Shown here one piece after another: positions 13,124 to 33,344 of a DNA stretch of 64,000 bases; position 1 is the stretch's first letter; each line of letters begins with the position of its first letter. A program made the translations under genes and the position numbers. The notes beneath the pieces were generated by a model. It had not been told where the DNA came from. It made no database searches and saw nothing but the letters and a program-made list of their open reading frames with translations. The stretch comes from a virus: the IMG/VR virus record IMGVR_UViG_3300037478_000449, positions 36,219 through 100,218 of that record, one strand, 5' to 3'.

Positions 13124-14209
13124 TCAAGGGGTGCACCCTTGCCACGGGATCGCGGGTGCCGGGGTGTGCGAGGGCGGGGTCAGCGCTCGCCGCATCAACG
13201 CCAGTTGCCGGCCCCAGGTGGCGCCGGTCCGCTGCGCCACCAGCCATCGTGCCTGCAAGCGGGCCGTCTCACGCTCAGCGGCCAGCCGCCGGTGGACCTC
13301 CCCCTCCAGCCAGCCCTGCCCGTTGCCGGCCTCGTGCTGGCCGTGCCGCCAGCGGGCCAGATACAGAGCGGCCCACCCGCGTACGGTCTCCCACCGGGCA
13401 CCGGCCGCGCCGCGTACGGCCCGGCCCAGCCGGGCCATGCCGAGCCCGGCGAGCACCAGCCCGGCGAGCAGCGGCAGCGGCAGCACCCCCACGGCGCAGG
13501 TGGCCAGTGCCCAGCCGGCGGTGGCCAGCCGGGCGGTGACCGTAGGCCGGGTGTCGGCCCGACCCGCCGCAGTCTGGGCCAGCGCCTGAGCGGCCAGCCG
13601 CAGCAGCGGCCGGGGCATCACCCCCAGCTCCCACGCCGCCGGCTGGGTCGCCGGTCCCCACTCGTAGCGGGCTCCGAGCACCGCCGCGTACCGGGCCGGC
13701 TCCGGGGCGGGTGGCGGTGCGGGTGGGGTGGGGCCGTCCGGCGGACCGTCGTCACCGTCCGGACCGTCACCGTCCGGCCCGTCGTCGTCGGTCGGGAGAA
13801 CGTCGTATGCGCCATCGTCGGGAGTTCGAGGCCCTCCCGCTGGCCTAATCAGGGTCACAGCGTCGGCCCGGATCTGGTCCAGGTCACCCAACGCCCGGTC
13901 CAGCAGCGGCGACCGGCGGACCGTAGCATCCGCGGCCGGCACAGCGGGCATCACCGCCGTAGCCCGCGGCTCAACCATCTCCGGCACTGCCGGTGGTGGC
14001 CACAGGCTGGCCGGTCCGACCGGCACCCTACCCACCACCGCCGGCCGGGCAGGTGGGGTGAACTCGTCCAACCGCACCCGGCCGCCCGGCTGGCGGCCGG
14101 TCCGGGCGGCCGCCCAGCCAGCGGCCCAGCACACCACCGACACCAGCAGCACCGCTCCGGCGAACACCAGCCACGGCGCGGTCACCGGCTGCGTCACAAA
14201 CTCCCACAC
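13124..14209 (-). CDS. Pro-rich membrane protein
   Basis: N-terminal and internal TM segments; DGPDGD repeats. Confidence 0.55.
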   Translation of the reverse strand: MWEFVTQPVTAPWLVFAGAVLLVSVVCWAAGWAAARTGRQPGGRVRLDEFTPPARPAVVGRVPVGPASLWPPPAVPEMVEPRATAVMPAVPAADATVRRSPLLDRALGDLDQIRADAVTLIRPAGGPRTPDDGAYDVLPTDDDGPDGDGPDGDDGPPDGPTPPAPPPAPEPARYAAVLGARYEWGPATQPAAWELGVMPRPLLRLAAQALAQTAAGRADTRPTVTARLATAGWALATCAVGVLPLPLLAGLVLAGLGMARLGRAVRGAAGARWETVRGWAALYLARWRHGQHEAGNGQGWLEGEVHRRLAAERETARLQARWLVAQRTGATWGRQLALMRRALTPPSHTPAPAIPWQGCTP

Positions 14210-15308: not shown

Positions 15309-16232
15309 CTACTCGGCCAGTCCGCCCAGCAGCGCGTTGCGGCGACGCCGCTGCCACCACATCGGCAGCACCACCGCGGCGGTCCCCAGCGCCACCAGCC
15401 CGCCGCCGACCGCCGCAGCGGTCTGCACCGGGGAGCCGGTCACCGGCAGCGACTCGCTACCGTCTGCCGAACCGCCGCCACCCGGAGCGCCAGGCTCACC
15501 CGGGTCACCCGGTTCGCCGGGGCAGCCGTTAACCGGGTTCACAACCAGCTCCCACTGCGTGGTCGCGTCGCCCGGGAAGGCGTAGCCCGGTGCCGGGCTC
15601 GCCGTCACCGGGTAGGTGCCAGGTGGAACCGGCCCGGACGTGGCGTCGTAGACCACCCCGTCCTGGGTCGGGATCACCAGCTCGCCCGCGTCCGTTCCGG
15701 TGGCGCACTCGAACTGGGCAACGCTCGGCTCCTCCGGGGTGACACAGCCGGCCACCCGGAACGCCTTCCACTGCCCCTCGCCGATGAACGGGTTGCCGTC
15801 CAGCTGCTCCGGCCCGAACACGGTCCACTCGAACCCGCCAACCTCCGCCCCGTAGGCGTTGATCGCCACCTTGAACGCGTCGTTGGTCAGCCCGCCGTCG
15901 GTGGCCGGATGCCCGACCCACAACGGGTAGTCCAAGTCCCGCTCGCCGCCGCCGAACAGACGCCACTGCACCACCGTCGGCGCGTCGAACGGGCCGACCT
16001 CCACCGACGCGCCCAGCGACTCCGACACCGCCGTCTGCCCGTTGGCGGACGCGACGATGAACGCCTCGACCTCGGTGCTGATCTTCACCGGCCCGCACGG
16101 TGCGTACGTCCGGTCGATCTGCACTGGCTGCCGGACCATCTCCTGCGCCTGCGCCGGGCTGCCGCCGAGCAGCAGCCCGGTTCCCGCCAGTGCCAGCACC
16201 GCTACGGCACCGGCCAGTCTCTTGTAGGTCAC
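15309..16232 (-). CDS. Secreted LPXTG sortase-anchored surface protein
   Basis: Signal peptide ending AQA; C-terminal LPVTG + TM + RRRR; start at GTG 16232. Confidence 0.8.
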   Translation of the reverse strand: MTYKRLAGAVAVLALAGTGLLLGGSPAQAQEMVRQPVQIDRTYAPCGPVKISTEVEAFIVASANGQTAVSESLGASVEVGPFDAPTVVQWRLFGGGERDLDYPLWVGHPATDGGLTNDAFKVAINAYGAEVGGFEWTVFGPEQLDGNPFIGEGQWKAFRVAGCVTPEEPSVAQFECATGTDAGELVIPTQDGVVYDATSGPVPPGTYPVTASPAPGYAFPGDATTQWELVVNPVNGCPGEPGDPGEPGAPGGGGSADGSESLPVTGSPVQTAAAVGGGLVALGTAAVVLPMWWQRRRRNALLGGLAE

Positions 16233-16250
16233 TACCTCATCCCTTCGTCC

Positions 16251-16271
16251 CCGCCGGCGCGGTGCCGGCGG
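16251..16271 (-). terminator. GC hairpin closing the RAMP/repeat locus
   Basis: CCGCCGGC-accgc-GCCGGCGG perfect 8-bp stem just after tract 5. Confidence 0.5.
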
Positions 16272-16279
16272 AAGTTTCC

Positions 16280-16359
16280 GCGCCTTGCCAAGCCACGCCC
16301 GACCTGGCCACACATCGGCTCGCCCGGCCACGCCTGGCCGTACCGCGCCATGCAGCGCA
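16280..16359 (-). ncRNA. (GGY-NN)n tract 5, 16 pentamers, candidate guide RNA
   Basis: tgcGC tgcAT ggcGC ggtAC ggcCA ggcGT ggcCG ggcGA gccGA tgtGT ggcCA ggtCG ggcGT ggcTT ggcAA ggcGC then gga. Confidence 0.75.
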
Positions 16360-16360
16360 T

Positions 16361-17038
16361 CTAGGCGGCCGCCTCAAGCTCGCCGAACCGGCCGGTCAGC
16401 AGCGCCTGGACTTCCCGCAGCGCGGTAACGGTCGCCTCGTCAGTCCAGTCGCACACGTCACCTTCGATCGCCTGAATGATCTGCTCGGCGTGGAAACGCA
16501 CTGACCAGCCCGAGGAACGGCGGTTGGCGCGTTCCTGCCGTTCGGTCAGCCGCTGGCCGGCGAGGTGCCGCAGCGGGCGCTTGATCGGCAGCGGCTTCCC
16601 GTCGTGGTCGTAGGCGGTCTTCGCGGCCTTTAGCTTCCCGAGCACGTCCACGTCGACCGCGAGCGCGCCTGCGATCCGGTCCACGTCCAAGCCAAGCTCG
16701 GTGCCGATCTGCACGCAGCGGGACCGGTCGAACGGGTTCAGCTTCACGCCATGGCGGGCGTTGCGCCGCATGGCGTCCTCGAACAGTTCCGCGTCCGACT
16801 CGTAGTCGACCAGCTCCACGGCGATGACCGCCTCGGTGTCACGCCGCAGGTACGCCGCAACCCGGTGGAAGCCGTCCACCACCCGAAGCGTGGACCGCTC
16901 AGCCACCACCGGCGGGGGTTCCTCCCCGGCGTCTAGCGAGTTGGCGATCCCCCTGACGTTCACGTCGTCCAGGTGGTGCCTGGGGTACAGCTTGTAGTCC
17001 AGAACCAGCTTGGCCGCTGGGATCTGCTTCGTTCTCAC
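16361..17038 (-). CDS. ParB/Srx N-terminal domain protein inside the RAMP-repeat locus
   Basis: LYPR, PPPVV, LRVVDGFHRVAA, NARHG; start at GTG 17038 after GGAAGG. Confidence 0.82.
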   Translation of the reverse strand: MRTKQIPAAKLVLDYKLYPRHHLDDVNVRGIANSLDAGEEPPPVVAERSTLRVVDGFHRVAAYLRRDTEAVIAVELVDYESDAELFEDAMRRNARHGVKLNPFDRSRCVQIGTELGLDVDRIAGALAVDVDVLGKLKAAKTAYDHDGKPLPIKRPLRHLAGQRLTERQERANRRSSGWSVRFHAEQIIQAIEGDVCDWTDEATVTALREVQALLTGRFGELEAAA

Positions 17039-17067
17039 GTGCTCACGCCTTCCACTTGTAGGTGTCC

Positions 17068-17132
17068 TTGCCCTGCCACACCCCGCCGTGCGACGCCGTG
17101 GGTCGCCCGGCCAAGCCCCGCCATGTCTTGCG
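17068..17132 (-). ncRNA. (GGY-NN)n tract 4, 13 pentamers
   Basis: cgcAA gacAT ggcGG ggcTT ggcCG ggcGA cccAC ggcGT cgcAC ggcGG ggtGT ggcAG ggcAA then gga. Confidence 0.75.
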
Positions 17133-17175
17133 TGGGCGCCGAGGGCTCGAACCTCGGGTGCCTGCCGGTCGCCCA
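17133..17175 (-). ncRNA. Mini-tRNA-like element 3 (acceptor + T arm)
   Basis: TGGGCG..CCGAGG-TTCGAGC-CCTCGG-CGCCCA, 6+6 bp. Confidence 0.7.
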
Positions 17176-17180
17176 AACCC

Positions 17181-17250
17181 TTGCGCTGCCCCGCGTTGCC
17201 CGGCCGGGCCTCGCCATGCCCAGCAGCGCCTCGCATCGCCGCGACGTGCC
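17181..17250 (-). ncRNA. (GGY-NN)n tract 3, 14 pentamers
   Basis: ggcAC gtcGC ggcGA tgcGA ggcGC tgcTG ggcAT ggcGA ggcCC ggcCG ggcAA cgcGG ggcAG cgcAA then ggg. Confidence 0.75.
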
Positions 17251-17258
17251 GCGAACGT

Positions 17259-17299
17259 GAGCGCCGCAGGAGTCGAACCTGCGATACGACCGTCCGCCC
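17259..17299 (-). ncRNA. Mini-tRNA-like element 2
   Basis: GGGCG..TCGCAGG-TTCGACT-CCTGCGG-CGCTC, 5+7 bp. Confidence 0.7.
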
Positions 17300-17308
17300 G
17301 GTTTGCCC

Positions 17309-17378
17309 TCGCCTTGCCACGCCGTGCCAGGCCCTGCGCAGCCGAGCCGAGCCTCGCCCCGCACAGCCCTGCCGCGCC
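17309..17378 (-). ncRNA. (GGY-NN)n tract 2, 14 pentamers
   Basis: ggcGC ggcAG ggcTG tgcGG ggcGA ggcTC ggcTC ggcTG cgcAG ggcCT ggcAC ggcGT ggcAA ggcGA then ggg. Confidence 0.75.
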
Positions 17379-17388
17379 TGGGTTCGGC

Positions 17389-17430
17389 GAGCGCCAGGGG
17401 AGTCGAACCCCCGGTTACGACCATCCGCTC
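17389..17430 (-). ncRNA. Mini-tRNA-like element 1
   Basis: GAGCG..CCGGGGG-TTCGACT-CCCCTGG-CGCTC, 5+7 bp. Confidence 0.7.
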
Positions 17431-17447
17431 AACCATCGGCCTACTCC

Positions 17448-17522
17448 TCGCCTCGCCAAACCCCGCCCAGCCATGCCGCACCTGGCGTCGCCGCACCGGG
17501 CTAGGCCGGGCCGCGCCGGGCC
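17448..17522 (-). ncRNA. (GGY-NN)n tract 1, 15 pentamers, about 20 nt after the RAMP stop
   Basis: ggcCC ggcGC ggcCC ggcCT agcCC ggtGC ggcGA cgcCA ggtGC ggcAT ggcTG ggcGG ggtTT ggcGA ggcGA then gga. Confidence 0.78.
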
Positions 17523-17541
17523 AAGACTCGTTTGGTGTGCC

Positions 17542-18078
17542 TCATGGCAGGACCTTGAACCGTCCGAAGGGGCCAGACTTCTCCGGTCGGTAATCACCGA
17601 CACCAACGGTCCGGCCGCCGATCTCCAGCAGCTCCCGAACCTGCTTCTCCGGTATGAAGTCCGTGTCCACCTCAAACCTCACCGTCGCCGCCCACTCGGG
17701 CACCTTCGCCCGGCTCCGGGTCACCCCGTTTCGCTGGACGACCGCCCGCCGGGTGTCGATCTCGTATTCCTTGACCGGCTCACCGTTGAGGATCAGCAGC
17801 GTCTGCTCATCGGCTGCGAACACCGCACCCTTGATGACCGACGTAGCAGCCGTCTTGCCGATCCGCCGGCCCTTCGCCGCCGACACCAGGCAGCCACGGA
17901 ACGCCTCCGACGGCAGGAACAGCTGCCCCGTAGCGCTGCGGTACACCGACCGCTCAGCCTCAACCTCGGCCGTTGGGATGTTCTTCCTCCCGAGCTTGTC
18001 CGACGGTGCCTGCATCCCAGCCGGGTTGTTCATCAGGACCGGCTTGATGCTCTGAATCTCGATCTCGATCAGTTCCAC
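17542..18078 (-). CDS. Stand-alone RAMP-superfamily (Cas7/Csm3-like) RNA-binding protein
   Basis: N-terminal strand IEIEIQSIKPVLMN, LFLPSEAFRGCL (cf. IPGSSLKG), thumb DTRRAVVQRNGVTRSR, G-rich loop GVGDYRPEKSGPFGRFKV; no other cas genes in window. Confidence 0.75.
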   Translation of the reverse strand: MELIEIEIQSIKPVLMNNPAGMQAPSDKLGRKNIPTAEVEAERSVYRSATGQLFLPSEAFRGCLVSAAKGRRIGKTAATSVIKGAVFAADEQTLLILNGEPVKEYEIDTRRAVVQRNGVTRSRAKVPEWAATVRFEVDTDFIPEKQVRELLEIGGRTVGVGDYRPEKSGPFGRFKVLP

Positions 18079-18511: not shown

Positions 18512-21010
18512 TCACCGGGACACCTCGCCCAGGTCGAACAGGGTCGGCATCGACAGATTGGCCTCGGTCGCCTGGAGATACTTCACGCCATCCAGGAAGT
18601 AGCCCGGATTCAGCTCCACGGCTCGACCCTGCCGACCAAGCCGCAGCGCACGAACTGGCACCGTGAACAGCCCACCGAACGGGTCGAAGACCATCTCGCC
18701 CTCGTTGCTGTACCGGCGGATCAGCCGGTCAACGATGTCGAACTGCAACGGGCAGACGTGAAGCGCCTGTGCCCGGCGGGACTGCTCGGTGTTTAGGGTC
18801 AGCATCCGGTTCACGTCGTGCCACACGTCCGGGTGGTGCGACCCGGGAGCGAGCGCCATGAACGTCGCCGGCAGCGCCCCCCGGCCTTCTAGCGCCTCGC
18901 CGATGCGGACGTGCGCCTCGTAGTCGTACACCTGCCGCAGGGTCTGCTCGGTGAACAGCCGGGACATCTGATCTGGCGGCAACGCGGCCAGCTCGTCCGG
19001 GGTCAGGTACCGCTCGCCCGAGGAGCGCCAGAACGCATGCGCGTCTACCTGCCACCGGGAGCGGGTGTAGTCGTCCTTGGACTTGGCAACCGGCACGTCT
19101 GCGTAGCCGCGGGTCCGGTCAGTCTGCGGCTTGTGGAACAGCAGGACGTACTCCGGGGAGCCGGCTCCCATCTTCGTCGCGTCCTTGCACTGCTCCGACC
19201 AGCCGAGCCGGTACGTCTGGTTGTTCTCCCGCACCACGTCCGTGACGACGGTGATCATGCCGAGGTAGTCGAAGCCGTGCCGGATGCCGTGGGCGATCGC
19301 CTCGGCGTGGAAGGGGGAGACGGTAGGGACTCCGGCGCCGGTGACGTTGCCGAACAGGATGCGGTCCTTGACGTGGCAGCAGTAGATGCGCCCGGGCCGT
19401 AGCACTCTCAGCAGCTCCGGCGTCAGGAAGTCCATCTGCGCCCAGAAGTGGCCGTTGTCGTCGGTGTGGCCGAAGTCCTCGTACTGCGGGGTGTACTCGT
19501 AGTGGTTGGCGAACGGGATCGACGTGACGATCAGGTCGACCGACTCAGGCGCCATCGCCTTGGTTTCCAGTACGCAATCGTTGTTGGCGACCAGCCAACC
19601 CTTTCCGGCGGCCTCGATCCGGTCGACGCCGATCGAGCGGGTCAACGCCTGCGTGATGCCCTGCTGGTCAAGGCCGAACTCGCGAATGACCTCGGTCATG
19701 GTGCCGGTCAGCTCCTCGTGCTGTGCCCACTTGCGCCGCAGCGTGCGGACGACTTCGCGCTCCGATTCGGCGTGGATGATGTCGATGCGCACCCGCTTTG
19801 TTTGCAGGAAGCGGTGGATGCGGTGGACCGCCTGAATGAAGTCGTTGAACGAGAACGTGATCCCGACGAAGACCGCCCGGTGGCAGTGCCGCTGAAAGTT
19901 GCACCCGGAGCCGGACAGTTCCGGCTTCGTGGCTAGTAGCCGAAACCGCCCGTCGGAGAAGTCGATGATCCGCTGCTCCCGGATGTCCAGGTCCAGCGAC
20001 CCGTACACCTCCACAGCCTCCGGCAGCGCCCGCTTGATCGCCCGACGCTCATCCTCCAGGTCGTGCCACAGGATGAAGTGGTCACCCGGGGATGCGGCTA
20101 CGATCTCAGCCGCCATCGCCACCCGCGCGTCCAGCGTGGACCGTTTCTCCCGAGCCGCGTCGGTCACACCCAGCGCGGCGCCCCGGAACAAGTGCCCCTG
20201 TCCGTCGCGGTCAACCGGTGCGTCTGAGTGGTCCACCGGAATCTCGTGATACATGACCTCGATGTCCGGCAGGTCGTATCCGGTGTCGTCGTATCCGAGG
20301 TCGCTCGGCTTCTGGAGGAACACGGCCCACGTGTTGAGCCACAGCCAGAACTCCCGCTGCTTGTGCGGGTAGAGCGTGAGGTGGTTGGCCTTGGTGGAGT
20401 CCCGCTGGAAGAACCGGGTCAGCGCCTGACCGGTGTCCATGATCCCGAGATAGCCGGCGTAGTGGATCAGCTCTTTATGCCGGTTCGGGCTTGGCGTGGC
20501 GGTGGCCAGGAACCGGTACTTAACCTCGTCGAACAGGGTCAGAAACGTCTGGTACGTCTTGGACCCGAACGAACGTAGCACCGACGCCTCGTCCAGGCTC
20601 ACCGCGTCGAACAGGTTGGGGTCTAGCCGGCCGTCCCGCACCGACTCGTAGTTGGTCAGGTACAGACCCGGCCCGTCGACCTCAGCGGTCCAGCGGACGA
20701 ACGACACGCCCATGTCGACCAGCGGGGCGTCCCTGGCGAACTCCTGCCGTACGCCGAGCGGGCAGACGATCAGCGCACGCCCGCCAGTCCTTGCAAGGAT
20801 CAGCCGCATGATCTCCAGCTGTATGACGCTCTTGCCGAGCCCGAACGCGGCGAAGACAGCACGCCGGCCGCCGCGCACGGCCCAGCGCACGATCGCCCGC
20901 TGGTGCAGCATCAAGGCCGGGTGAACGTCAGCCTCGTTGACCTCGAATCCGTACGTCTGGCTGAAGTCGACCTTGGCGGCCAGGAAATCGGTGTAGCTGT
21001 TCGCGCTCAC
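18512..21010 (-). CDS. SF2 helicase-like + DNA methyltransferase (N4C/N6A, beta class) fusion
   Basis: AFGLGKS, LDEASVL, ATATPSPN, QAVHRIHRF; then LIVTSIPF, HVCPLQ, FDPFGG, AVELNPGY; start GTG 21010. Confidence 0.88.
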   Translation of the reverse strand: MSANSYTDFLAAKVDFSQTYGFEVNEADVHPALMLHQRAIVRWAVRGGRRAVFAAFGLGKSVIQLEIMRLILARTGGRALIVCPLGVRQEFARDAPLVDMGVSFVRWTAEVDGPGLYLTNYESVRDGRLDPNLFDAVSLDEASVLRSFGSKTYQTFLTLFDEVKYRFLATATPSPNRHKELIHYAGYLGIMDTGQALTRFFQRDSTKANHLTLYPHKQREFWLWLNTWAVFLQKPSDLGYDDTGYDLPDIEVMYHEIPVDHSDAPVDRDGQGHLFRGAALGVTDAAREKRSTLDARVAMAAEIVAASPGDHFILWHDLEDERRAIKRALPEAVEVYGSLDLDIREQRIIDFSDGRFRLLATKPELSGSGCNFQRHCHRAVFVGITFSFNDFIQAVHRIHRFLQTKRVRIDIIHAESEREVVRTLRRKWAQHEELTGTMTEVIREFGLDQQGITQALTRSIGVDRIEAAGKGWLVANNDCVLETKAMAPESVDLIVTSIPFANHYEYTPQYEDFGHTDDNGHFWAQMDFLTPELLRVLRPGRIYCCHVKDRILFGNVTGAGVPTVSPFHAEAIAHGIRHGFDYLGMITVVTDVVRENNQTYRLGWSEQCKDATKMGAGSPEYVLLFHKPQTDRTRGYADVPVAKSKDDYTRSRWQVDAHAFWRSSGERYLTPDELAALPPDQMSRLFTEQTLRQVYDYEAHVRIGEALEGRGALPATFMALAPGSHHPDVWHDVNRMLTLNTEQSRRAQALHVCPLQFDIVDRLIRRYSNEGEMVFDPFGGLFTVPVRALRLGRQGRAVELNPGYFLDGVKYLQATEANLSMPTLFDLGEVSR

Positions 21011-21651
21011 CGGGGCACCCCGCCCGGGTCTGTCCCGCCGGGTTCCCGGCCCAGCAGCCGGTCCAGCCACACCACGTCGTCCACGGCCTCCACCGCCAGC
21101 GGCTCGCCGAGCACGTCGACCAGGTGGGCGGCGGCCCGCTTGCCGGATGCCTCATCCGGGTAGGCCAGGTAGTGCCGCACCGGCCCAGCAGCGGGCAGGG
21201 TGTGCACGTCCCAAACGAGGCTCACCGGACCCGCCCCCTCTGCCGCCGACGCAGCTCCTGCTCCCAGTCGTAGGTGGTGTTCCGGTCGGCCAGCCGTGCC
21301 GCGTCGATGGCCTGCCGCAGCCGGGTGTCCTGGTCGCGGCGCCGCTGCCGGGCGGCCCGGCGGGGGTGGGGCAGGTGCAGCCTCACCGGACCCGCCTCCT
21401 GCCGTGGTAGATGGCCACACCGGTTACCAGCGCCCCGGCTGGGATCACCGCGGCGGTGGGGGAGTCCGGGCCTGGGGTGGTGGCCACGTGGACCAGCCGG
21501 GTGAGCCGGTCCGGTGTGCAGCAGCCCGGGTCACCGGCCGGTGCCAGACACACCCGGCACGGCGGGCTGGGCTGCCGGCACGGGCTGCAGGTGTCGGCGG
21601 TGGTCCACTCTCCGCAGGTGCACAGCCGCACCCTGGTCGCCGTCGCCGCGG

Positions 21652-29414: not shown

Positions 29415-29490
29415 TGGAGGCTAGGTCCGGACTCGAACCGGACTCTCGCGCTTTGCAGGCGCGGCGCCGACCCACGACGATCACCTAGCC
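29415..29490 (-). tRNA. tRNA-Cys(GCA)
   Basis: CGCGC-CTGCAAA-GCGCG; TCCA end. Confidence 0.8.
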
Positions 29491-29495
29491 ACAGG

Positions 29496-29568
29496 CGTCC
29501 CTGAGAGGATTCGAACCTCCGGCCTCTGCCTTCGGAGGGCAGCGCGCTTCCATCTGCGCTACAGGGAC
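29496..29568 (-). tRNA. tRNA-Arg(CCG)
   Basis: CTGCC-CTCCGAA-GGCAG; GGTTCGAATCC. Confidence 0.88.
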
Positions 29569-29572
29569 ACGG

Positions 29573-29652
29573 TGGGAGCGAGAGGAATCGAACCTCCACG
29601 CTTGCGCTACAGCTTTACAGGCTGCTGGGCTCACCACCTGCCCAACGCTCCC
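29573..29652 (-). tRNA. tRNA-Tyr(GTA)
   Basis: CTGTAAA loop, long variable arm. Confidence 0.88.
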
Positions 29653-29653
29653 C

Positions 29654-29730
29654 TGGGGTGACCGACGGGACTCGAACCCGCGTGTTCCGGGACCACAACC
29701 CGGCGCGCCAACCGCTGCGCTACAGCCACC
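29654..29730 (-). tRNA. tRNA-His(GTG)
   Basis: TTGTGGT loop, G-1/C73, CCA. Confidence 0.9.
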
Positions 29731-29735
29731 ACGAG

Positions 29736-29807
29736 TACCCGCGCCAGGGCTCGAACCTGGGGCCTTCCGGGTGTGGGCCGGACGCTCTCCCACTGAGCTA
29801 CACGGGC
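29736..29807 (-). tRNA. tRNA-Val(CAC)
   Basis: TCCGG-CCCACAC-CCGGA. Confidence 0.82.
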
Positions 29808-29819
29808 AAGATCGGGACG

Positions 29820-29894
29820 TGCGCCGGGTGGGGATCGAACCCGACCACGACCTGGATATAAGCCAGGCTCCACCAACCAGGTGGACTCCGGCGC
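29820..29894 (-). tRNA. tRNA-Ile(TAT)
   Basis: CCTGG-CTTATAT-CCAGG; A73. Confidence 0.75.
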
Positions 29895-29899
29895 ATCGG

Positions 29900-29982
29900 C
29901 GGAGGGAGAGGGATTCGAACCCTCGACGGGATCGCGCCCGTACGCCGCTTCCAACGGCGTCTCCGTAACCGCCGGCCCCTCC
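29900..29982 (-). tRNA. tRNA-Ser(GGA)
   Basis: TTGGAAG loop, long variable arm, G73. Confidence 0.8.
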
Positions 29983-29983
29983 A

Positions 29984-30059
29984 TGGCTCCCTCGGCTGGT
30001 CTCGAACCAGCAGCCTTGCCCTTAACAGGGGCCTGCTCCGCCAATTGAGCTACGAGGGA
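29984..30059 (-). tRNA. tRNA-Asn(GTT)
   Basis: CTGTTAA loop, GCCA end. Confidence 0.88.
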
Positions 30060-30060
30060 A

Positions 30061-30135
30061 TGGCAGCGCGTACGGGGATCGAACCCGTTCTTCCAGGGTG
30101 AAAGCCTGACGACCTAACCAGTAGTCGAACGCGCC
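30061..30135 (-). tRNA. tRNA-Glu(TTC)
   Basis: CTTTCAC loop, CCA. Confidence 0.88.
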
Positions 30136-30140
30136 ATGGG

Positions 30141-30214
30141 TGTTCCGGCCTGGGTTCGAACCAGGGGCCTCGGCCGTGTCGGGGCCGCGCTCTGCCAGGC
30201 TGAGCTACCGGAAC
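30141..30214 (-). tRNA. tRNA-Val(GAC)
   Basis: CGGCC-CCGACAC-GGCCG. Confidence 0.82.
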
Positions 30215-30215
30215 G

Positions 30216-30289
30216 TGGCGGGGGCGGGAATCGAACCCGCGTAGGCCGGGATATGAGCCCGGTGTGCAGCCAACATGCACCACCCCGCA
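30216..30289 (-). tRNA. tRNA-fMet(CAT)-like
   Basis: CCGGG-CTCATAT-CCCGG (three G-C pairs), 1:72 mismatch. Confidence 0.78.
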
Positions 30290-30290
30290 G

Positions 30291-30362
30291 TGCCGCCGGA
30301 AGGAATCGAACCCTCGCAATCCGGATTAAAAGTCCGGAGCCCGGCCATCAGGCGCCGACGGC
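30291..30362 (-). tRNA. tRNA-Lys(TTT)
   Basis: CCGGA-CTTTTAA-TCCGG. Confidence 0.82.
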
Positions 30363-30368
30363 TTGCTG

Positions 30369-30440
30369 CCTCCCGCCCAGGAGTCGAACCCGGACATCCG
30401 CCTTAGGAGAGCGGCGCTCTGTCCGTTGAGCTAGCGGGAG
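30369..30440 (-). tRNA. tRNA-Arg(CCT)
   Basis: CTCCTAA loop. Confidence 0.85.
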
Positions 30441-30441
30441 A

Positions 30442-30514
30442 TGGAGCGGCACCCGGGAGTCGAACCCGGCCGCCTCGGCTTAGAAGGCCAGGGAGCGCAT
30501 CCGGCGCGTACCGC
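30442..30514 (-). tRNA. tRNA with TCT (Arg) anticodon on a Gly-like body
   Basis: GCG/CGC acceptor, U73-CCA, CTTCTAA loop. Confidence 0.7.
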
Positions 30515-30515
30515 G

Positions 30516-30592
30516 TGGTGGGCCGCCAGGGATTCGAACCCTGTTCTACGGGGTAAGAGCCCGCAGCATTGACCTGGACATGCTCGCGGCCC
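30516..30592 (-). tRNA. tRNA-Lys(CTT)
   Basis: CTCTTAC loop, ACCA. Confidence 0.8.
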
Positions 30593-30597
30593 GCGAG

Positions 30598-30681
30598 CGG
30601 AAGGTTGAGGTGTCGATCCCCCAGGGGTTACCCTGCATGCCGGTTTTCGAGACCGGGTGGCGAGCCGTCGCCGAACCTTCC
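30598..30681 (-). tRNA. tRNA-Ser(CGA)
   Basis: CCGGT-CTCGAAA-ACCGG, long arm, atypical T-loop ATCGACA. Confidence 0.72.
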
Positions 30682-30686
30682 ATGAG

Positions 30687-30760
30687 TCGGGCTGGCCGGA
30701 TTCGAACCGACGGCCTCGCGCTCCCGAAGCGCGCGCGCTACCAACCTGCGCCACAGCCCG
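30687..30760 (-). tRNA. tRNA-Pro(CGG)
   Basis: TTCGGGA loop, CGG 5' end. Confidence 0.9.
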
Positions 30761-30875
30761 CTGCCGGCTCCCCCTCCCAGTGCGTCCCGAGCACACTCCC
30801 CGCCACCTGCACGGGTTCACCGGGATCTGCCCCACGGGCTGCGTCTTCACCTGGTCGAAGCGGAGGAACCTTGAG

Positions 30876-30950
30876 TCGGGATGGGGAGATTCGAACTCCC
30901 GGTCTCCAGCCCCCCAGGCTGGCGCCCTAACCAAGCTGGGCCACATCCCG
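30876..30950 (-). tRNA. tRNA-Pro(GGG)
   Basis: CTGGGGG loop. Confidence 0.88.
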
Positions 30951-30955
30951 ATTCG

Positions 30956-31029
30956 TACCCCCGACAGGACTCGAACCTGCCGCCTCCGACTTCGTAGGCC
31001 GGCGCTCTCTCCAGATGAGCTACGGGGGC
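30956..31029 (-). tRNA. tRNA-Arg(ACG)
   Basis: CTACGAA loop. Confidence 0.9.
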
Positions 31030-31030
31030 A

Positions 31031-31106
31031 TGGTGGGCGACCACGGAGTTGAACCGCGCCATACCGACTTATCAGATCGGCCTCGTCACCGGCTGAGTCG
31101 TCGCCC
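31031..31106 (-). tRNA. tRNA-Ile(GAT)
   Basis: CTGATAA loop, ACCA. Confidence 0.82.
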
Positions 31107-31111
31107 CTAGG

Positions 31112-31196
31112 CGGAGAGTGAGGGGATCGAACCCCCGCGAGGTTTCCCTCGGCATCGGCTTAGCAAACCGTCCCGTTACCACTCCGGCAACCCTCC
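31112..31196 (-). tRNA. tRNA-Ser(GCT)
   Basis: TTGCTAA loop, long arm. Confidence 0.85.
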
Positions 31197-31200
31197 AGGG

Positions 31201-31274
31201 CGCCTCGTACGGGATTCGAACCCGTGCATCTCCTCCTTGACAGGGAGGCGTCCACTCCGCTGGACCGACGAGGC
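31201..31274 (-). tRNA. tRNA-Asp(GTC)
   Basis: CCTCC-CTGTCAA-GGAGG. Confidence 0.88.
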
Positions 31275-31279
31275 TTGCG

Positions 31280-31361
31280 TACGCTCGGAGGGAGTCGAAC
31301 CCCCACGCCTTGCGGCACCGGTTTCTAAGACCGGGGTGTCTACCAGTTCCACCACGAGCGC
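31280..31361 (-). tRNA. tRNA-Leu(TAG)
   Basis: CTTAGAA loop, long arm. Confidence 0.9.
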
Positions 31362-31366
31362 ATGAG

Positions 31367-31435
31367 TGGAGTGTCGGGGAGTCGAACCCCGCGGACCCAG
31401 CTTGCAAGGCAAGGCTGCACACCAGTGCCCACCCC
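31367..31435 (-). tRNA. tRNA-Ala(TGC), imperfect
   Basis: G3:U70, CTTGCAA loop, stem mismatches. Confidence 0.65.
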
Positions 31436-31440
31436 ACGCG

Positions 31441-31513
31441 AGCCACCGGACGGGATCGAACCGTCTGCCTTCCCCTTACGAGGGGGACGCTCTGCCAAGT
31501 GAGCTACGGCGGC
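31441..31513 (-). tRNA. tRNA-Thr(CGT)
   Basis: CTCGTAA loop. Confidence 0.88.
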
Positions 31514-31518
31514 ACCGG

Positions 31519-31587
31519 AGCCGGCGGCGAGAGTCGAACTCGCAGCGGCCGACTTACAAGGCCGGAGCGCCACCGTGGCTCGCCGGC
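31519..31587 (-). tRNA. tRNA-Thr(TGT)
   Basis: CTTGTAA loop, short D arm. Confidence 0.78.
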
Positions 31588-31592
31588 ATGGG

Positions 31593-31664
31593 CTCCCTCG
31601 CCTGGATTCGAACCAAGCTTTCGGCGTTCAGAGCGCCGCGTCCTACCGACTAGACGACGAGGGA
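31593..31664 (-). tRNA. tRNA-Gln(CTG)
   Basis: CTCTGAA loop. Confidence 0.88.
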
Positions 31665-31699
31665 ATGGGAGCCAGCGGGCCGCGGTCCCGCCAGCTCGG

Positions 31700-32152
31700 T
31701 CAGCGCTGGGCGATCGACGCCCACGACGGGGCGGCCGGCTTGACCCTCAGCGCCATGCCCGCCTCGGCGGGTGTGCGGTCACCCTTGCGCTGGTTGCACG
31801 GCCCGCACGCGGCGACCGTGTTGCGCCACGTGTTCCGCCCACCGCGGGCACGCGGGGTGATGTGGTCGACGGTGGTGGCCCAGGCGTCGCAGTATCCGCA
31901 CCGGCCGCCGTCGCGGGCGATCACACCCGGCCGGGACCACGCCGGCCCGGCCGTGTACCGCCACCTGGTGACCACGTACTGCACCAGGCGGAGCACCTTC
32001 GGCGCTGGCCACGGGCCGACGATCCGGCCCGGGTCCGCCTCGTGCACCACCGCCACCTGGCGGACTAGCATCCGGATCGCGTGGCGGAAGCTGACCCGGT
32101 GCAACGGACCAAGGTCCGCGTTGAGGACAAGGACGGCGTCCACCGGGTTCAC
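31700..32152 (-). CDS. HNH endonuclease inside the tRNA array
   Basis: VLVLNAD..PL, RDGGRCGYC, TVDHITPRARGG..TWRNTVAACGPCNQRKGDRTP. Confidence 0.92.
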   Translation of the reverse strand: MNPVDAVLVLNADLGPLHRVSFRHAIRMLVRQVAVVHEADPGRIVGPWPAPKVLRLVQYVVTRWRYTAGPAWSRPGVIARDGGRCGYCDAWATTVDHITPRARGGRNTWRNTVAACGPCNQRKGDRTPAEAGMALRVKPAAPSWASIAQR

Positions 32153-32171
32153 CTCCTCGTGGGGTGGGCGC

Positions 32172-32247
32172 TGGAGCGGCTGGCCGGGTTCGAACCGGCG
32201 GCCTCGACGATGGCAACGTCGCGCTCTGCCAACTGAGCTACAACCGC
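32172..32247 (-). tRNA. tRNA-Gly(GCC)
   Basis: TTGCCAT loop, TCCA. Confidence 0.9.
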
Positions 32248-32252
32248 ATGAG

Positions 32253-32325
32253 AGCCATCGAGCGGGCTTGAACCGCTGGCCTCCTTCTTACCGGGAAGGC
32301 GCTCTACCGACTGAGCTACGACGGC
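32253..32325 (-). tRNA. tRNA-Thr(GGT)
   Basis: CCGGTAA loop. Confidence 0.85.
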
Positions 32326-32326
32326 G

Positions 32327-32403
32327 TGGTGCTCCGGGTGCGACTCGAACGCACACTGTGCGCGGTTTGGGCGCGCCGCCTCCTACCGTTGGGCTACCGG
32401 AGC
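32327..32403 (-). tRNA. tRNA-Leu(CAA), short variable arm
   Basis: GCGCG-CCCAAAC-CGCGC, ACCA. Confidence 0.78.
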
Positions 32404-32408
32404 ACGAG

Positions 32409-32482
32409 CTGGGGGCGGGGGATTCGAACCCTGTCCATGACCCGGGTCAAAGCCGGGCATCCTGCCGTTAGATGAGCCCCCA
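32409..32482 (-). tRNA. tRNA-Gln(TTG)
   Basis: CTTTGAC loop. Confidence 0.85.
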
Positions 32483-32613
32483 ACGATGTGATGCCGGGCG
32501 TGGGGGCGGTGACCACCGCGCTGGCCGGGTAGCTACTCCCGTCGCGCCGGCTGGCAGGCTGCGCAACCCGCCGGCCGGTTTCGCGGCGTCCGCCGCCCCG
32601 GTGCCCGGCATCG

Positions 32614-32685
32614 AGCGGTAGCGGGGACTCGAACCCCGTCCGTCAGCTTGGAAGGCTGAGGCTCTACCAGGTGAGCTACTACCGC
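32614..32685 (-). tRNA. tRNA-Gly(TCC)
   Basis: CTTCCAA loop, U73. Confidence 0.9.
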
Positions 32686-32812
32686 GTGAGCGGGTGGAGC
32701 AGTCCAGGACGGATCAGTCTTAGCGACCACGGCGGCCTGGACCCCACCTCGGTCGACTCTTAGTGCGCGCGCTCCGTGGGCGCCTCGCGGCGCTTGCATA
32801 CTCCAACCGCAG

Positions 32813-32886
32813 TAGGCCGTACGAGGTTCGAACTCGTAACCTCCTGGCTGAGAACCAGGTGAGCTGCCAGCTTGCTCCAACGGCCC
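32813..32886 (-). tRNA. tRNA-Glu(CTC)
   Basis: CCTGG-TTCTCAG-CCAGG. Confidence 0.82.
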
Positions 32887-32953
32887 AAGGGCGCCGGGCA
32901 GGGTGCGTAGTCCCTGCGCTGTCCGGACACTGCATCAGCACTTCCGGCGCCAG

Positions 32954-33025
32954 TGCTCTCTCCCCGGCTCGAACAGGGACCTCCTGGGCTTCAACCAGAC
33001 GCGCTACCGCTTGCGCCAAGAGAGC
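32954..33025 (-). tRNA. tRNA-Phe(GAA)
   Basis: TTGAAGC loop. Confidence 0.82.
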
Positions 33026-33031
33026 ATGGTG

Positions 33032-33105
33032 TGGACCTGGCCGGGTTCGAACCGGCGGCCTCCTGTCTGCCGAACAGGCGCGCTACCAGGCTGCGCCACA
33101 GGCCC
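33032..33105 (-). tRNA. tRNA-Ala(GGC)
   Basis: G3:U70, TCGGCAG loop. Confidence 0.88.
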
Positions 33106-33106
33106 A

Positions 33107-33182
33107 TGGTCGGGAACCGGGGAGTCGAACCCCGCACTTCCTGCCCCCAAAGCAGGCCCGGTCACCGCGCCGGGCGTTCCCG
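33107..33182 (-). tRNA. tRNA-Pro(TGG)
   Basis: TTTGGGG loop, ACCA. Confidence 0.85.
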
Positions 33183-33269
33183 ATCGCCCGGCGTATGGTC
33201 GACGCCGGGCTCATGCCATCCGCTGTGGAGATATCAACCGCCGATCCCGCCGGCCGTAGCCGGGAGAAG

Positions 33270-33344
33270 CAGGGGCGACAGGATTCGAACCTGCGGCATC
33301 TGGTTTTGGAGACCAGCGCTCTGACCGTGCTGAGCTACACCCCT
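33270..33344 (-). tRNA. tRNA-Trp(CCA)
   Basis: CTCCAAA loop, AGGGGTG 5' end. Confidence 0.92.

What the first reader, a model, noticed from the sequence alone, without database searches (positions are those of the whole stretch)
16280..17522. Decoding the NN strings: a testable gapped target code, possibly skipping codon wobble positions
Seen in sequence, NN strings 5'-3': T1 CC GC CC CT CC GC GA CA GC AT TG GG TT GA GA; T2 GC AG TG GG GA TC TC TG AG CT AC GT AA GA; T3 AC GC GA GA GC TG AT GA CC CG AA GG AG AA; T4 AA AT GG TT CG GA AC GT AC GG GT AG AA; T5 GC AT GC AC CA GT CG GA GA GT CA CG GT TT AA GC. Inference: if each NN is followed by one skipped base (NNx), the strings read as codon positions 1-2 and give protein-like peptides, for example T5 A-[IM]-A-T-[HQ]-V-R-[DE]-[DE]-V-[HQ]-R-V-[FL]-[NK]-A and T3 T-A-[DE]-[DE]-A-[WC]-[IM]-[DE]-P-R-[NK]-G. 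Such a code would tolerate synonymous escape mutations. The protein-like appearance is subjective, and a non-exhaustive look by eye found no target inside this window.
Basis: inference. Interest (0 to 1): 0.85.

Follow-up and report, generated by a model that had tools for sequence, protein, structure and literature searches.

The report
Actinophage VIPR guide RNAs, already-known code
The five 5-base-periodic tracts are guide RNA genes of a phage VIPR system, a CRISPR-like DNA-silencing system described in 2026 preprints.

Summary

They flank two genes. One (18078..17542) encodes a 178-aa RAMP protein whose family profile matches the solved 'SUSP1 Vipr protein' (PDB 36pp, E=9e-21). The other (17038..16361) encodes a ParB/Noc/KorB-fold protein that accompanies Vipr throughout this clade.

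The locus is therefore a VIPR system (bioRxiv 10.64898/2026.04.26.720920, .720927, 2026.10.15.759431). Those papers already show experimentally that vrRNA NN dinucleotides pair with DNA while skipping one base, usually the codon wobble base. This scan has also met VIPR loci on other DNA before.

I searched for targets with exact seeds in IMG/VR and GTDB genomes.
- One candidate emerged. Guide T4 matches 10 consecutive NN, in frame with the skip on the wobble base, in a conserved tape-measure motif (MGFRDTVTGV). The motif occurs in about 15 small high-GC phage contigs and 2 Amycolatopsis genomes. I estimate chance at about 0.02-0.3.
- The other four guides gave nothing above chance.
- There is no self-target.

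One feature is not mentioned in the texts I searched: three tRNA-like minihelices separate guides T1-T4.

The parts
17542..18078 (-). vipr gene: 178-aa stand-alone RAMP protein (P0001)
   Evidence: A profile of 30 homologs matches PDB 36pp_D 'SUSP1 Vipr protein' at E=9e-21 over the full length. The AF2 model has pLDDT 94, and its top Foldseek hits are Csm3/Cas7/Cmr RAMPs. The G-loop D162-Y163-R164 corresponds to SUSP1 D177-W178-R179. Thumb R123 corresponds to R138; K69, G74 and K75 correspond to K82, G87 and K88.
17445..17525 (-). vrRNA T1 repeat tract, 16 YNNGG units
   Evidence: It starts 17 nt after the vipr stop codon, and no sigma-70-like promoter lies between them.
17384..17433 (-). tRNA-like minihelix module 1: 5-bp acceptor-like stem, 11-nt bulge, 7-bp stem with TTCGACT loop
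   Evidence: The RNAfold MFE gives this fold, but the z-score of -0.55 is not significant. Not called by ARAGORN or Rfam.
17306..17380 (-). vrRNA T2 repeat tract, 15 units
17254..17301 (-). tRNA-like minihelix module 2
   Evidence: The MFE gives the same architecture. Relative to module 1, two stem pairs change on both sides (and by eye).
17178..17252 (-). vrRNA T3 repeat tract, 15 units, 5 of them degenerate
17129..17176 (-). tRNA-like minihelix module 3: 6-bp stem, TTCGAGC loop
   Evidence: Aligns with modules 1 and 2, but its MFE prefers an alternative fold.
17065..17129 (-). vrRNA T4 repeat tract, 13 units, the only guide with a candidate natural target
16361..17038 (-). ParB-like accessory gene, the probable vap of this clade (225 aa)
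   Evidence: phrog_1033 ParB-like, E=1.9e-9. The AF2 model has pLDDT 90, and its top Foldseek hits are pNOB8 ParB-N, Noc, ParB and KorB. A homolog lies next to vipr in nearly all related loci whose Vipr is at least 36% identical, wherever the contig reaches far enough.
16277..16356 (-). vrRNA T5 repeat tract, 16 units, downstream of the ParB-like gene
16240..16276 (-). T5 3' tail with a 9-10 bp G+C hairpin
   Evidence: MFE -19.9 kcal/mol, z-score not significant. Its function is inferred.

Best explanation
The region is a VIPR (Viral Interference Programmable Repeat) locus of a 100-kb, 71% G+C actinophage.

Proposed mechanism, inferred from the published family:
- vipr, four vrRNA genes, a ParB-like accessory gene and a fifth vrRNA gene are read from the minus strand, probably as one transcript.
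- Vipr protomers polymerise along each (Y-NN-GG)n tract, one per pentamer, hiding the GGY bases and presenting the NN pairs.
- The NN pairs base-pair with double-stranded DNA while every third target base is skipped.
- The bound filament blocks transcription of a competing mobile element.

Shown here by sequence and structure prediction: the Vipr homolog with its RNA-contact residues, the arrays, and their linkage to vipr across related loci.

Inferred only: expression of the RNAs, their processing, DNA binding and silencing.

Guide T4 probably targets the conserved MGFRDTVTGV motif of the tape-measure gene of small (~17 kb) high-GC siphophages and related Amycolatopsis prophages. I put this at about 50%.

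The three tRNA-like minihelices between T1-T4 probably act as host RNase P/RNase Z cutting signals that release the single guides. I put this at about 45%.
For: - Vipr identity: (PDB 36pp, E=9e-21 with the family profile and 0.003 with the single sequence; the D-aromatic-R G-loop, thumb Arg and helix-1 Lys are conserved). The RAMP fold is shown.
- Arrays: 13-16 units, within the published 9-16, on the same strand as vipr and intergenic.
- Arrays follow Vipr, not ParB. Vipr loci without a ParB homolog still carry arrays (L021, L108, L109, L120-L130). ParB-only loci (L017-L019) carry none.
- In relatives with 49-71% GC the GGY frame is kept while NN differs from array to array.
- No self-target: in the own genome the skip-1 best match is 18-23 of 26-32, the same as shuffled guides, while skip-3 finds the arrays themselves. 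The papers report the same for other systems.
- T4 target: 10 consecutive NN are perfect, 21/26 overall. The match is on the sense strand, in frame, with the skip on the wobble base, in a tape-measure-like ORF. It occurs in about 15 IMG/VR contigs of 68-71% GC and in 2 of 121 Amycolatopsis genomes, against 0 for the reversed control. Across 14 distinct target sequences, codon positions 1 and 2 vary in 0 and 1 of 10 codons, and position 3 in 9 of 10.
- Published mechanism.
Against: - There are no expression or binding data for this locus.
- Four of five guides have no target above chance.
- Unlike the SUSP1 case, the guides do not converge on one element.
- The T4 match leaves the two tail-proximal NN unpaired, although published R-loops grow from the tail end.
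- My chance estimate for a 10-NN hit over all seeds scanned is about 0.3. It falls to about 0.02 only when a high-GC viral contig and the codon frame are also required.
- Short guides reach 80% NN match by chance even in 1 Mb.
- The SUSP1-type pseudoknot tail is not evident here.
- H17 of SUSP1 Vipr is Asn in this protein.
- The tRNA-like folds have non-significant z-scores, and the modules are absent from every relative found.
Confidence: 0.88

Rival explanations
1. The pentamer arrays act as DNA, not RNA. They would be a lattice of binding sites (centromere- or operator-like) for the ParB-like protein encoded among them.
For: A ParB/Noc/KorB-fold protein lies in the middle of the arrays. Arrays sit 25-75 nt upstream of start codons in relatives.
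Against: Arrays occur with Vipr where no ParB homolog is present, and are absent from ParB-only loci. All arrays share the strand of vipr. The published family has direct RNA and cryo-EM evidence that such tracts are RNAs bound by Vipr.
Confidence: 0.04
2. The locus is a VIPR system, but the T4 tape-measure match is a chance hit on a conserved protein motif. The true targets of all five guides are not in the collections searched.
For: The same 8-NN seed also hit 22 tRNA-Ser genes of low-GC phages, clearly by chance. About 0.3 such 10-NN hits are expected over all seeds scanned (my estimate from the hit counts). No second guide hits the same elements. The two tail-proximal NN are mismatched.
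Against: The hit lies in high-GC phage DNA, in frame, with the skip on the wobble base and in an essential structural gene, as the model predicts. Combined chance is about 0.02. The reversed-pattern control gave 0 against 2 in 121 Amycolatopsis genomes.
Confidence: 0.45
3. The three tRNA-like modules are not processing signals. They are the structured 3' tails that cap the vrRNAs, the counterpart of the SUSP1 pseudoknot. Alternatively they are decayed tRNA gene remnants without function.
For: Published vrRNAs carry a structured 3' tail directly after the repeats. The phage has 36 tRNA genes that could seed remnants. Fold z-scores are not significant.
Against: T4 and T5 lack such a module. The closest relatives have only ~12-nt linkers. 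The modules are not copies of any of the phage's tRNAs. Their stems keep pairing through changes on both sides.
Confidence: 0.35

Closest known systems
VIPR systems: Escherichia phage SUSP1 and Pseudomonas fulva prophage, type II (bioRxiv 10.64898/2026.04.26.720920, 10.64898/2026.04.26.720927, 10.64898/2026.10.15.759431; PDB 36pp)
   Same: A stand-alone ~20-kDa RAMP protein with the same G-loop and thumb residues. Arrays of 13-16 Y-NN-GG pentamers flank vipr and an accessory gene on one strand. The system is phage-borne and has no self-target. One candidate target obeys the 1-nt skip rule with the skip on the wobble base, in a tape-measure gene. SUSP1's satellite targets likewise encode a tape measure.
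   Different: Only 20-25% identity to SUSP1 Vipr. The host phage is a 71% GC actinophage. The accessory gene has a ParB/Noc/KorB fold; the papers' main texts name WH-like, HTH-like, HNH and helicase vaps and never mention ParB. No SUSP1-like pseudoknot tail is evident. tRNA-like minihelices lie between guides. I could not assign the locus to one of the seven published types.
VIPR arrays interspersed with hammerhead ribozymes (types I and V, same preprint, fig. S19)
   Same: Structured RNA modules lie between adjacent vrRNAs and presumably cut a polycistronic precursor into single guides.
   Different: Here the module is a tRNA-like acceptor/T-arm minihelix that would need host RNase P/Z, not a self-cleaving ribozyme. 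The word tRNA does not occur in the main texts of preprints 1 and 3, the two searched for it; preprint 2 was read only in outline and Results.
Class 1 CRISPR-Cas backbone (Cas7/Csm3/Cmr4 on crRNA)
   Same: RAMP fold. One protomer binds per fixed step of guide, and a thumb breaks the guide-target duplex periodically.
   Different: No CRISPR repeats, spacers or other cas genes. The step is 5 nt with only 2 pairing bases, not 6 nt with 5. The target is dsDNA, read 2 of every 3 bases.
TRAP-type ring proteins binding (G/U)AG-NN repeats in RNA
   Same: Triplets spaced by two free bases with 5-nt periodicity. This was my first working analogy, from my own knowledge.
   Different: No TRAP homolog is present. 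The linked protein is a RAMP with a solved relative that forms helical filaments. I dropped this analogy.

Membership tests
VIPR system | A Vipr protein: a stand-alone minimal RAMP homologous to characterised Vipr | tested here: met
   The family profile matches PDB 36pp 'SUSP1 Vipr protein' at E=9e-21 over residues 2-183 of 185 profile positions. The single sequence gives E=0.003. Foldseek top hits are Csm3/Cas7/Cmr.
VIPR system | Residues that read GGY: G-loop Asp, aromatic and Arg (SUSP1 D177, W178, R179), thumb Arg (R138), beta-sheet His17 | tested here: met
   D162, Y163, R164 and R123 align to them; all but Y163 are invariant or nearly invariant in the 30 homologs, and Y163 falls below the 90% list. 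His17 is Asn17 here, while many homologs keep His. Four of five residues are kept.
VIPR system | vrRNA genes: tandem Y-NN-GG pentamers (9-16 units) with conserved GGY and variable NN, next to vipr on the same strand | tested here: met
   Five tracts of 13-16 units. NN differs between tracts and between related loci while GGY is kept. Arrays track Vipr across 30+ loci.
VIPR system | A conserved structured 3' tail after each repeat tract | tested here: inconclusive
   Tails differ within the locus. T1-T3 have tRNA-like minihelices, T4 has none evident and T5 has a G+C hairpin. No fold z-score is significant. The closest relatives have ~12-nt linkers.
VIPR system | An accessory vap gene beside vipr | tested here: met
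   A ParB-like gene lies next to vipr here and in L010-L016, L020, L110, L111 and L113-L116. Whether it equals one of the published vap1-6 could not be checked.
VIPR system | Targets obey the 1-nt skip rule (NNx) and lie in competing mobile elements; no self-targets | tested here: inconclusive
   No self-target. One candidate for T4. None for T1, T2, T3 or T5. The searches used exact 8-9-NN seeds, so they were not exhaustive.
VIPR system | vrRNAs are expressed, bound by Vipr, and silence transcription | not testable with these tools
   This needs RNA sequencing, pull-down and reporter assays.
tRNA genes (for the three inter-guide modules) | A full cloverleaf with anticodon arm, recognised by tRNA models | tested here: not met
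   ARAGORN tRNAs elsewhere and none here. Rfam tRNA gives no match even at E<=10. Only an acceptor-like stem and a T-arm are present.
CRISPR-Cas | A repeat-spacer array and cas operon | tested here: not met
   Rfam shows no CRISPR repeat family above threshold; there is only a noise hit at E=9.8. PADLOC and NCBIfam give no hit for either protein.
ParABS partition system (for the ParB-like gene) | ParB N-domain plus HTH fold; the GERRxR CTP motif; a ParA partner and parS sites | tested here: inconclusive
   The fold is met. The motif reads DGFHR, not GERRxR. I did not search for ParA or parS.

The most novel reading that the evidence does not exclude
This actinophage VIPR locus may represent an undescribed array architecture. 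Guides would be separated by tRNA-like acceptor/T-arm minihelices, so that host RNase P and RNase Z cut the precursor. The system would be paired with a ParB/KorB-like accessory protein that might spread from or clamp at the Vipr-bound site. One guide would be aimed at an invariant tape-measure motif of small Amycolatopsis-type phages.
Probability: 0.35. Interest if true: 0.5.

Novelty: new member of a known kind. Interest (0 to 1): 0.35.

Why it matters
The decoding idea itself adds nothing new, because the 1-nt skip, wobble-skipping code was published with biochemical and structural proof in 2026.

The locus is still useful in three ways.
- It extends VIPR to a large high-GC actinophage.
- It links a whole Vipr clade to a ParB-fold accessory protein.
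- It offers a concrete, testable guide-target pair: T4 against the tape-measure motif, where 14 natural target variants differ almost only at the skipped bases.

It also shows a possible tRNA-like processing module, which would parallel engineered tRNA-gRNA arrays.

One practical point for such searches: conserved RNA genes and conserved protein motifs give whole families of chance hits. Short guides reach the usual 80% NN threshold by chance even in 1 Mb.

Tried and rejected
- **TRAP-like RNA ring-protein sites, promoter/UP arrays and a ParB centromere.** These were my first ideas (note 1). I dropped them once the neighbouring protein matched a solved Vipr and the arrays proved to track Vipr, not ParB.
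- **Exact seed scans.**
  - T5 and T3 with 9 NN in IMG/VR: 0 hits.
  - T1 and T2 with 8 NN: 17 and 7 hits, none extending.
  - T5 core with 8 NN in IMG/VR (27 hits), T5 with 9 NN in genomes (52 hits) and T3 with 9 NN in genomes (7 hits): no extension above chance.
  - The best T5 hit is a chromosomal AhpD/CMD-like gene in six Streptomyces species (25-26 of 32). I judged it chance.
- **Mismatch-tolerant scans.** T5 (15 NN, up to 3 mismatches) in 201 Pseudonocardiaceae genomes and T1 (13 NN, up to 3 mismatches) in 121 Amycolatopsis genomes: 0 hits and 0 control hits.
- **Convergence tests.** The other four guides, tested against the T4 target phages and the Amycolatopsis prophage region, stay at shuffled level at every skip size.
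- **Relatives' guides.** 62 guides from related loci, tested against 1.06 Mb that includes this phage, score the same at skip 1 as at skip 2.
- **Host inference.** A Vipr search in 121 Amycolatopsis genomes gave only one weak match. The host remains unknown.
- **Closer relatives.** The closest Vipr homologs (81-87% identity, Logan contigs) could therefore not be fetched to test whether the tRNA-like modules are conserved.
- **Alignment-based locus search.** It failed for lack of a conserved stretch.
Full report
**What is there**

The window is the right-hand 64 kb of a 100,218-bp IMG/VR virus record. It has 71% G+C, and CheckV rates the record complete. Genes around the finding run on the minus strand.

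Read on that strand, five tracts of in-phase NN-GG[C/T] pentamers appear at 17525..17445, 17380..17306, 17252..17178, 17129..17065 and 16356..16277. In-phase GCC counts reach 6-9 of 10. The maximum in 20 shuffles of the window was 5, and the opposite orientation never passes the threshold.

**Context**

T1-T4 follow directly on an ORF at 18078..17542. A ParB-like ORF (17038..16361) separates T4 from T5.

Homologs of the ParB-like protein in IMG/VR contigs of 49-62% G+C carry the same kind of arrays. These arrays are sense-oriented and intergenic, and each ends in a conserved GGC-AA-GG motif. That showed the arrays are a conserved element rather than a compositional oddity.

**Identity**

The upstream ORF (P0001, 178 aa) has no Pfam, NCBIfam or PADLOC hit. 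It has 111 metagenomic homologs.

A profile of 30 of them matches one PDB sequence only, 36pp 'SUSP1 Vipr protein', at E=9e-21 over the full length. The AlphaFold model (pLDDT 94) resembles Csm3/Cas7/Cmr RAMPs.

The residues that the cryo-EM preprint names as reading the GGY bases are kept:
- D177/W178/R179 of SUSP1 correspond to D162/Y163/R164 here.
- Thumb R138 corresponds to R123.
- The non-target-strand clamp K82, G87, K88 corresponds to K69, G74, K75.
- H17 is Asn here.

Three 2026 preprints describe the family. According to them:
- VIPR systems consist of Vipr, an accessory vap gene, and vrRNAs of 9-16 Y-NN-GG repeats with a 3' tail.
- The NN pairs bind double-stranded DNA while every third target base is skipped.
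- The skipped base usually falls on the codon wobble position.
- Targets are competing phages, prophages and satellites.

Earlier follow-ups in this scan identified VIPR loci on other DNA as well.

**Linkage**

I examined 40 related loci.
- Arrays occur with Vipr whether or not a ParB homolog is present.
- The three ParB-only loci have no arrays.
- Every Vipr at least 36% identical to this one has the ParB-like gene beside it wherever the contig is long enough.

The ParB-like protein models well (pLDDT 90). It resembles the pNOB8 ParB N-domain, Noc, ParB and KorB, covering the N-domain plus HTH. Its motif is DGFHR, not the GERRxR of CTP-binding ParBs.

I read it as the clade's vap. The main texts of preprints 1 and 3 and the one held supplement of preprint 1, the only places searched, do not mention ParB, so I could not assign a type.

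**Targets**

In the phage's own genome, the best 1-skip matches (18-23 of 26-32) equal those of NN-shuffled guides. Skip 3 finds the arrays themselves. There is no self-target, as published for other systems.

Collection scans accept only exact patterns, so I used seeds of 8-9 NN and judged hits by how far the match extends.
- T3 and T5 with 9 NN in IMG/VR: 0 hits.
- T1 and T2 with 8 NN: 17 and 7 hits, with no extension.
- T4 with 8 NN: 43 hits, in two families.

The first T4 family is tRNA-Ser genes of low-GC phages. This is a chance match.

The second is about 15 contigs of 68-71% G+C, mostly 16-17.5 kb. They are small siphophages with portal, HK97-type capsid, adaptor and a short tape-measure-like gene. 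There, ten consecutive NN (AT GG TT CG GA AC GT AC GG GT) match perfectly. The match is on the sense strand and in frame, and spells M-G-F-R-D-T-V-T-G-V. The total is 21 of 26.

The same site occurs in a tape-measure-like ORF beside a capsid-like gene in Amycolatopsis sp. V23-08. It also occurs in a second of 121 Amycolatopsis genomes, with 0 hits for the reversed control.

Over 14 distinct target sequences, codon positions 1 and 2 vary in 0 and 1 of 10 codons, and position 3 in 9 of 10. The guide would thus cover all known variants, which is the logic described for SUSP1.

**How strong is that?**

From the hit counts of the 8- and 9-NN seeds, I estimate about 0.03 chance hits per 10-NN window in IMG/VR. 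That gives about 0.3 over the 13 windows my seeds covered. Requiring a high-GC viral contig and the codon frame, both predicted beforehand by the model, brings this to about 0.02.

Several points count against the T4 target.
- The two tail-proximal NN do not pair, although published R-loops grow from the tail end.
- No other guide hits the same phages or the prophage region.
- Further seeds for T5 and T3, and mismatch-tolerant scans of T5 and T1 in Pseudonocardiaceae and Amycolatopsis genomes, gave nothing above chance.
- Guides from related loci tested against 1 Mb, including this phage, also gave nothing, and short guides reach 80% there by chance.

I therefore rate the T4 target at about 50%.

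**tRNA-like modules**

Three about 48-nt elements lie between T1/T2, T2/T3 and T3/T4. All share the same plan:
- a 5-bp acceptor-like stem;
- a 10-12-nt bulge;
- a 6-7-bp stem;
- a T-loop-like TTCGAnY loop.

Pairing is kept through changes on both sides in two stem positions and one acceptor position.

RNAfold returns this fold for two of the three, but z-scores are not significant. ARAGORN and Rfam do not call them. They are not copies of the phage's 36 tRNAs.

None of the relatives found has them. The closest (57-63% identity) have about 12-nt linkers, and one packs about 30 guides into 2.2 kb. No promoter-like site lies between vipr and T1, so a polycistronic precursor is likely.

A role as RNase P/Z cutting signals is plausible but inferred. 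The published analogue is hammerhead-interspersed arrays.

**Verdict**

This is a real and complete VIPR locus, a new member of a known kind. The decoding idea is correct but already published. The only parts of possible novelty are the tRNA-like spacers, the ParB-fold accessory gene and one candidate target.

**Limits**

I could not run an exhaustive mismatch-tolerant search with shuffled controls at all gap sizes.

Noticed in passing
L111:1776-3997 (JGI Ga0126377_10034158): A related VIPR locus (Vipr 57% identical, 71% GC) packs about 30 tandem vrRNAs between vipr and the ParB-like gene. The linkers are only ~12 nt (CACCGnTCGTC-like) and there are no tRNA-like modules.
   Followed up: partly
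L046 and 14 similar IMG/VR loci (L048-L085); G001:C6:159017-159045; G256:C1:4383607-4383635: A family of ~16-17.5-kb, 68-71% GC small siphophages, plus two Amycolatopsis prophage-like regions, share an invariant tape-measure motif (MGFRDTVTGV). Its codons differ almost only at the third position.
   Followed up: partly
L047, L049-L051 and about 18 other loci: tRNA-Ser genes of low-GC phages match the T4 8-NN seed exactly, by chance. Conserved RNA genes are a false-positive class for NNx target searches.
   Followed up: yes
window 13389-13474 (-): Six to eight in-phase GGC pentamers lie inside a probable coding ORF (14209..13124, GC3 0.85) that encodes a membrane-like protein. This is probably chance, not a sixth guide.
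   Followed up: partly
window 29415-33344 (-): A block of 36 tRNA genes covers most amino acids.
   Followed up: no
window 18512-21070 (-): An 852-aa helicase/N6_N4 DNA methylase gene just upstream of the VIPR operon. It is 75% identical at DNA level to genes of many Mycobacterium phages. This is the only nucleotide-level link to cultured phages that I found.
   Followed up: no
L185:6168-6956 and five other Streptomyces loci (L181, L182, L186, L199, L208): Guide T5 matches a conserved chromosomal AhpD/CMD-like gene at 25-26 of 32 NN bases, and at 21 of 22 over the 11 tail-proximal NN. By my count this is indistinguishable from chance among 52 seed hits.
   Followed up: partly
window 15309-16232 (-): The gene directly downstream of T5 starts with a signal-peptide-like sequence and has no Pfam or PHROG hit.
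   Followed up: no
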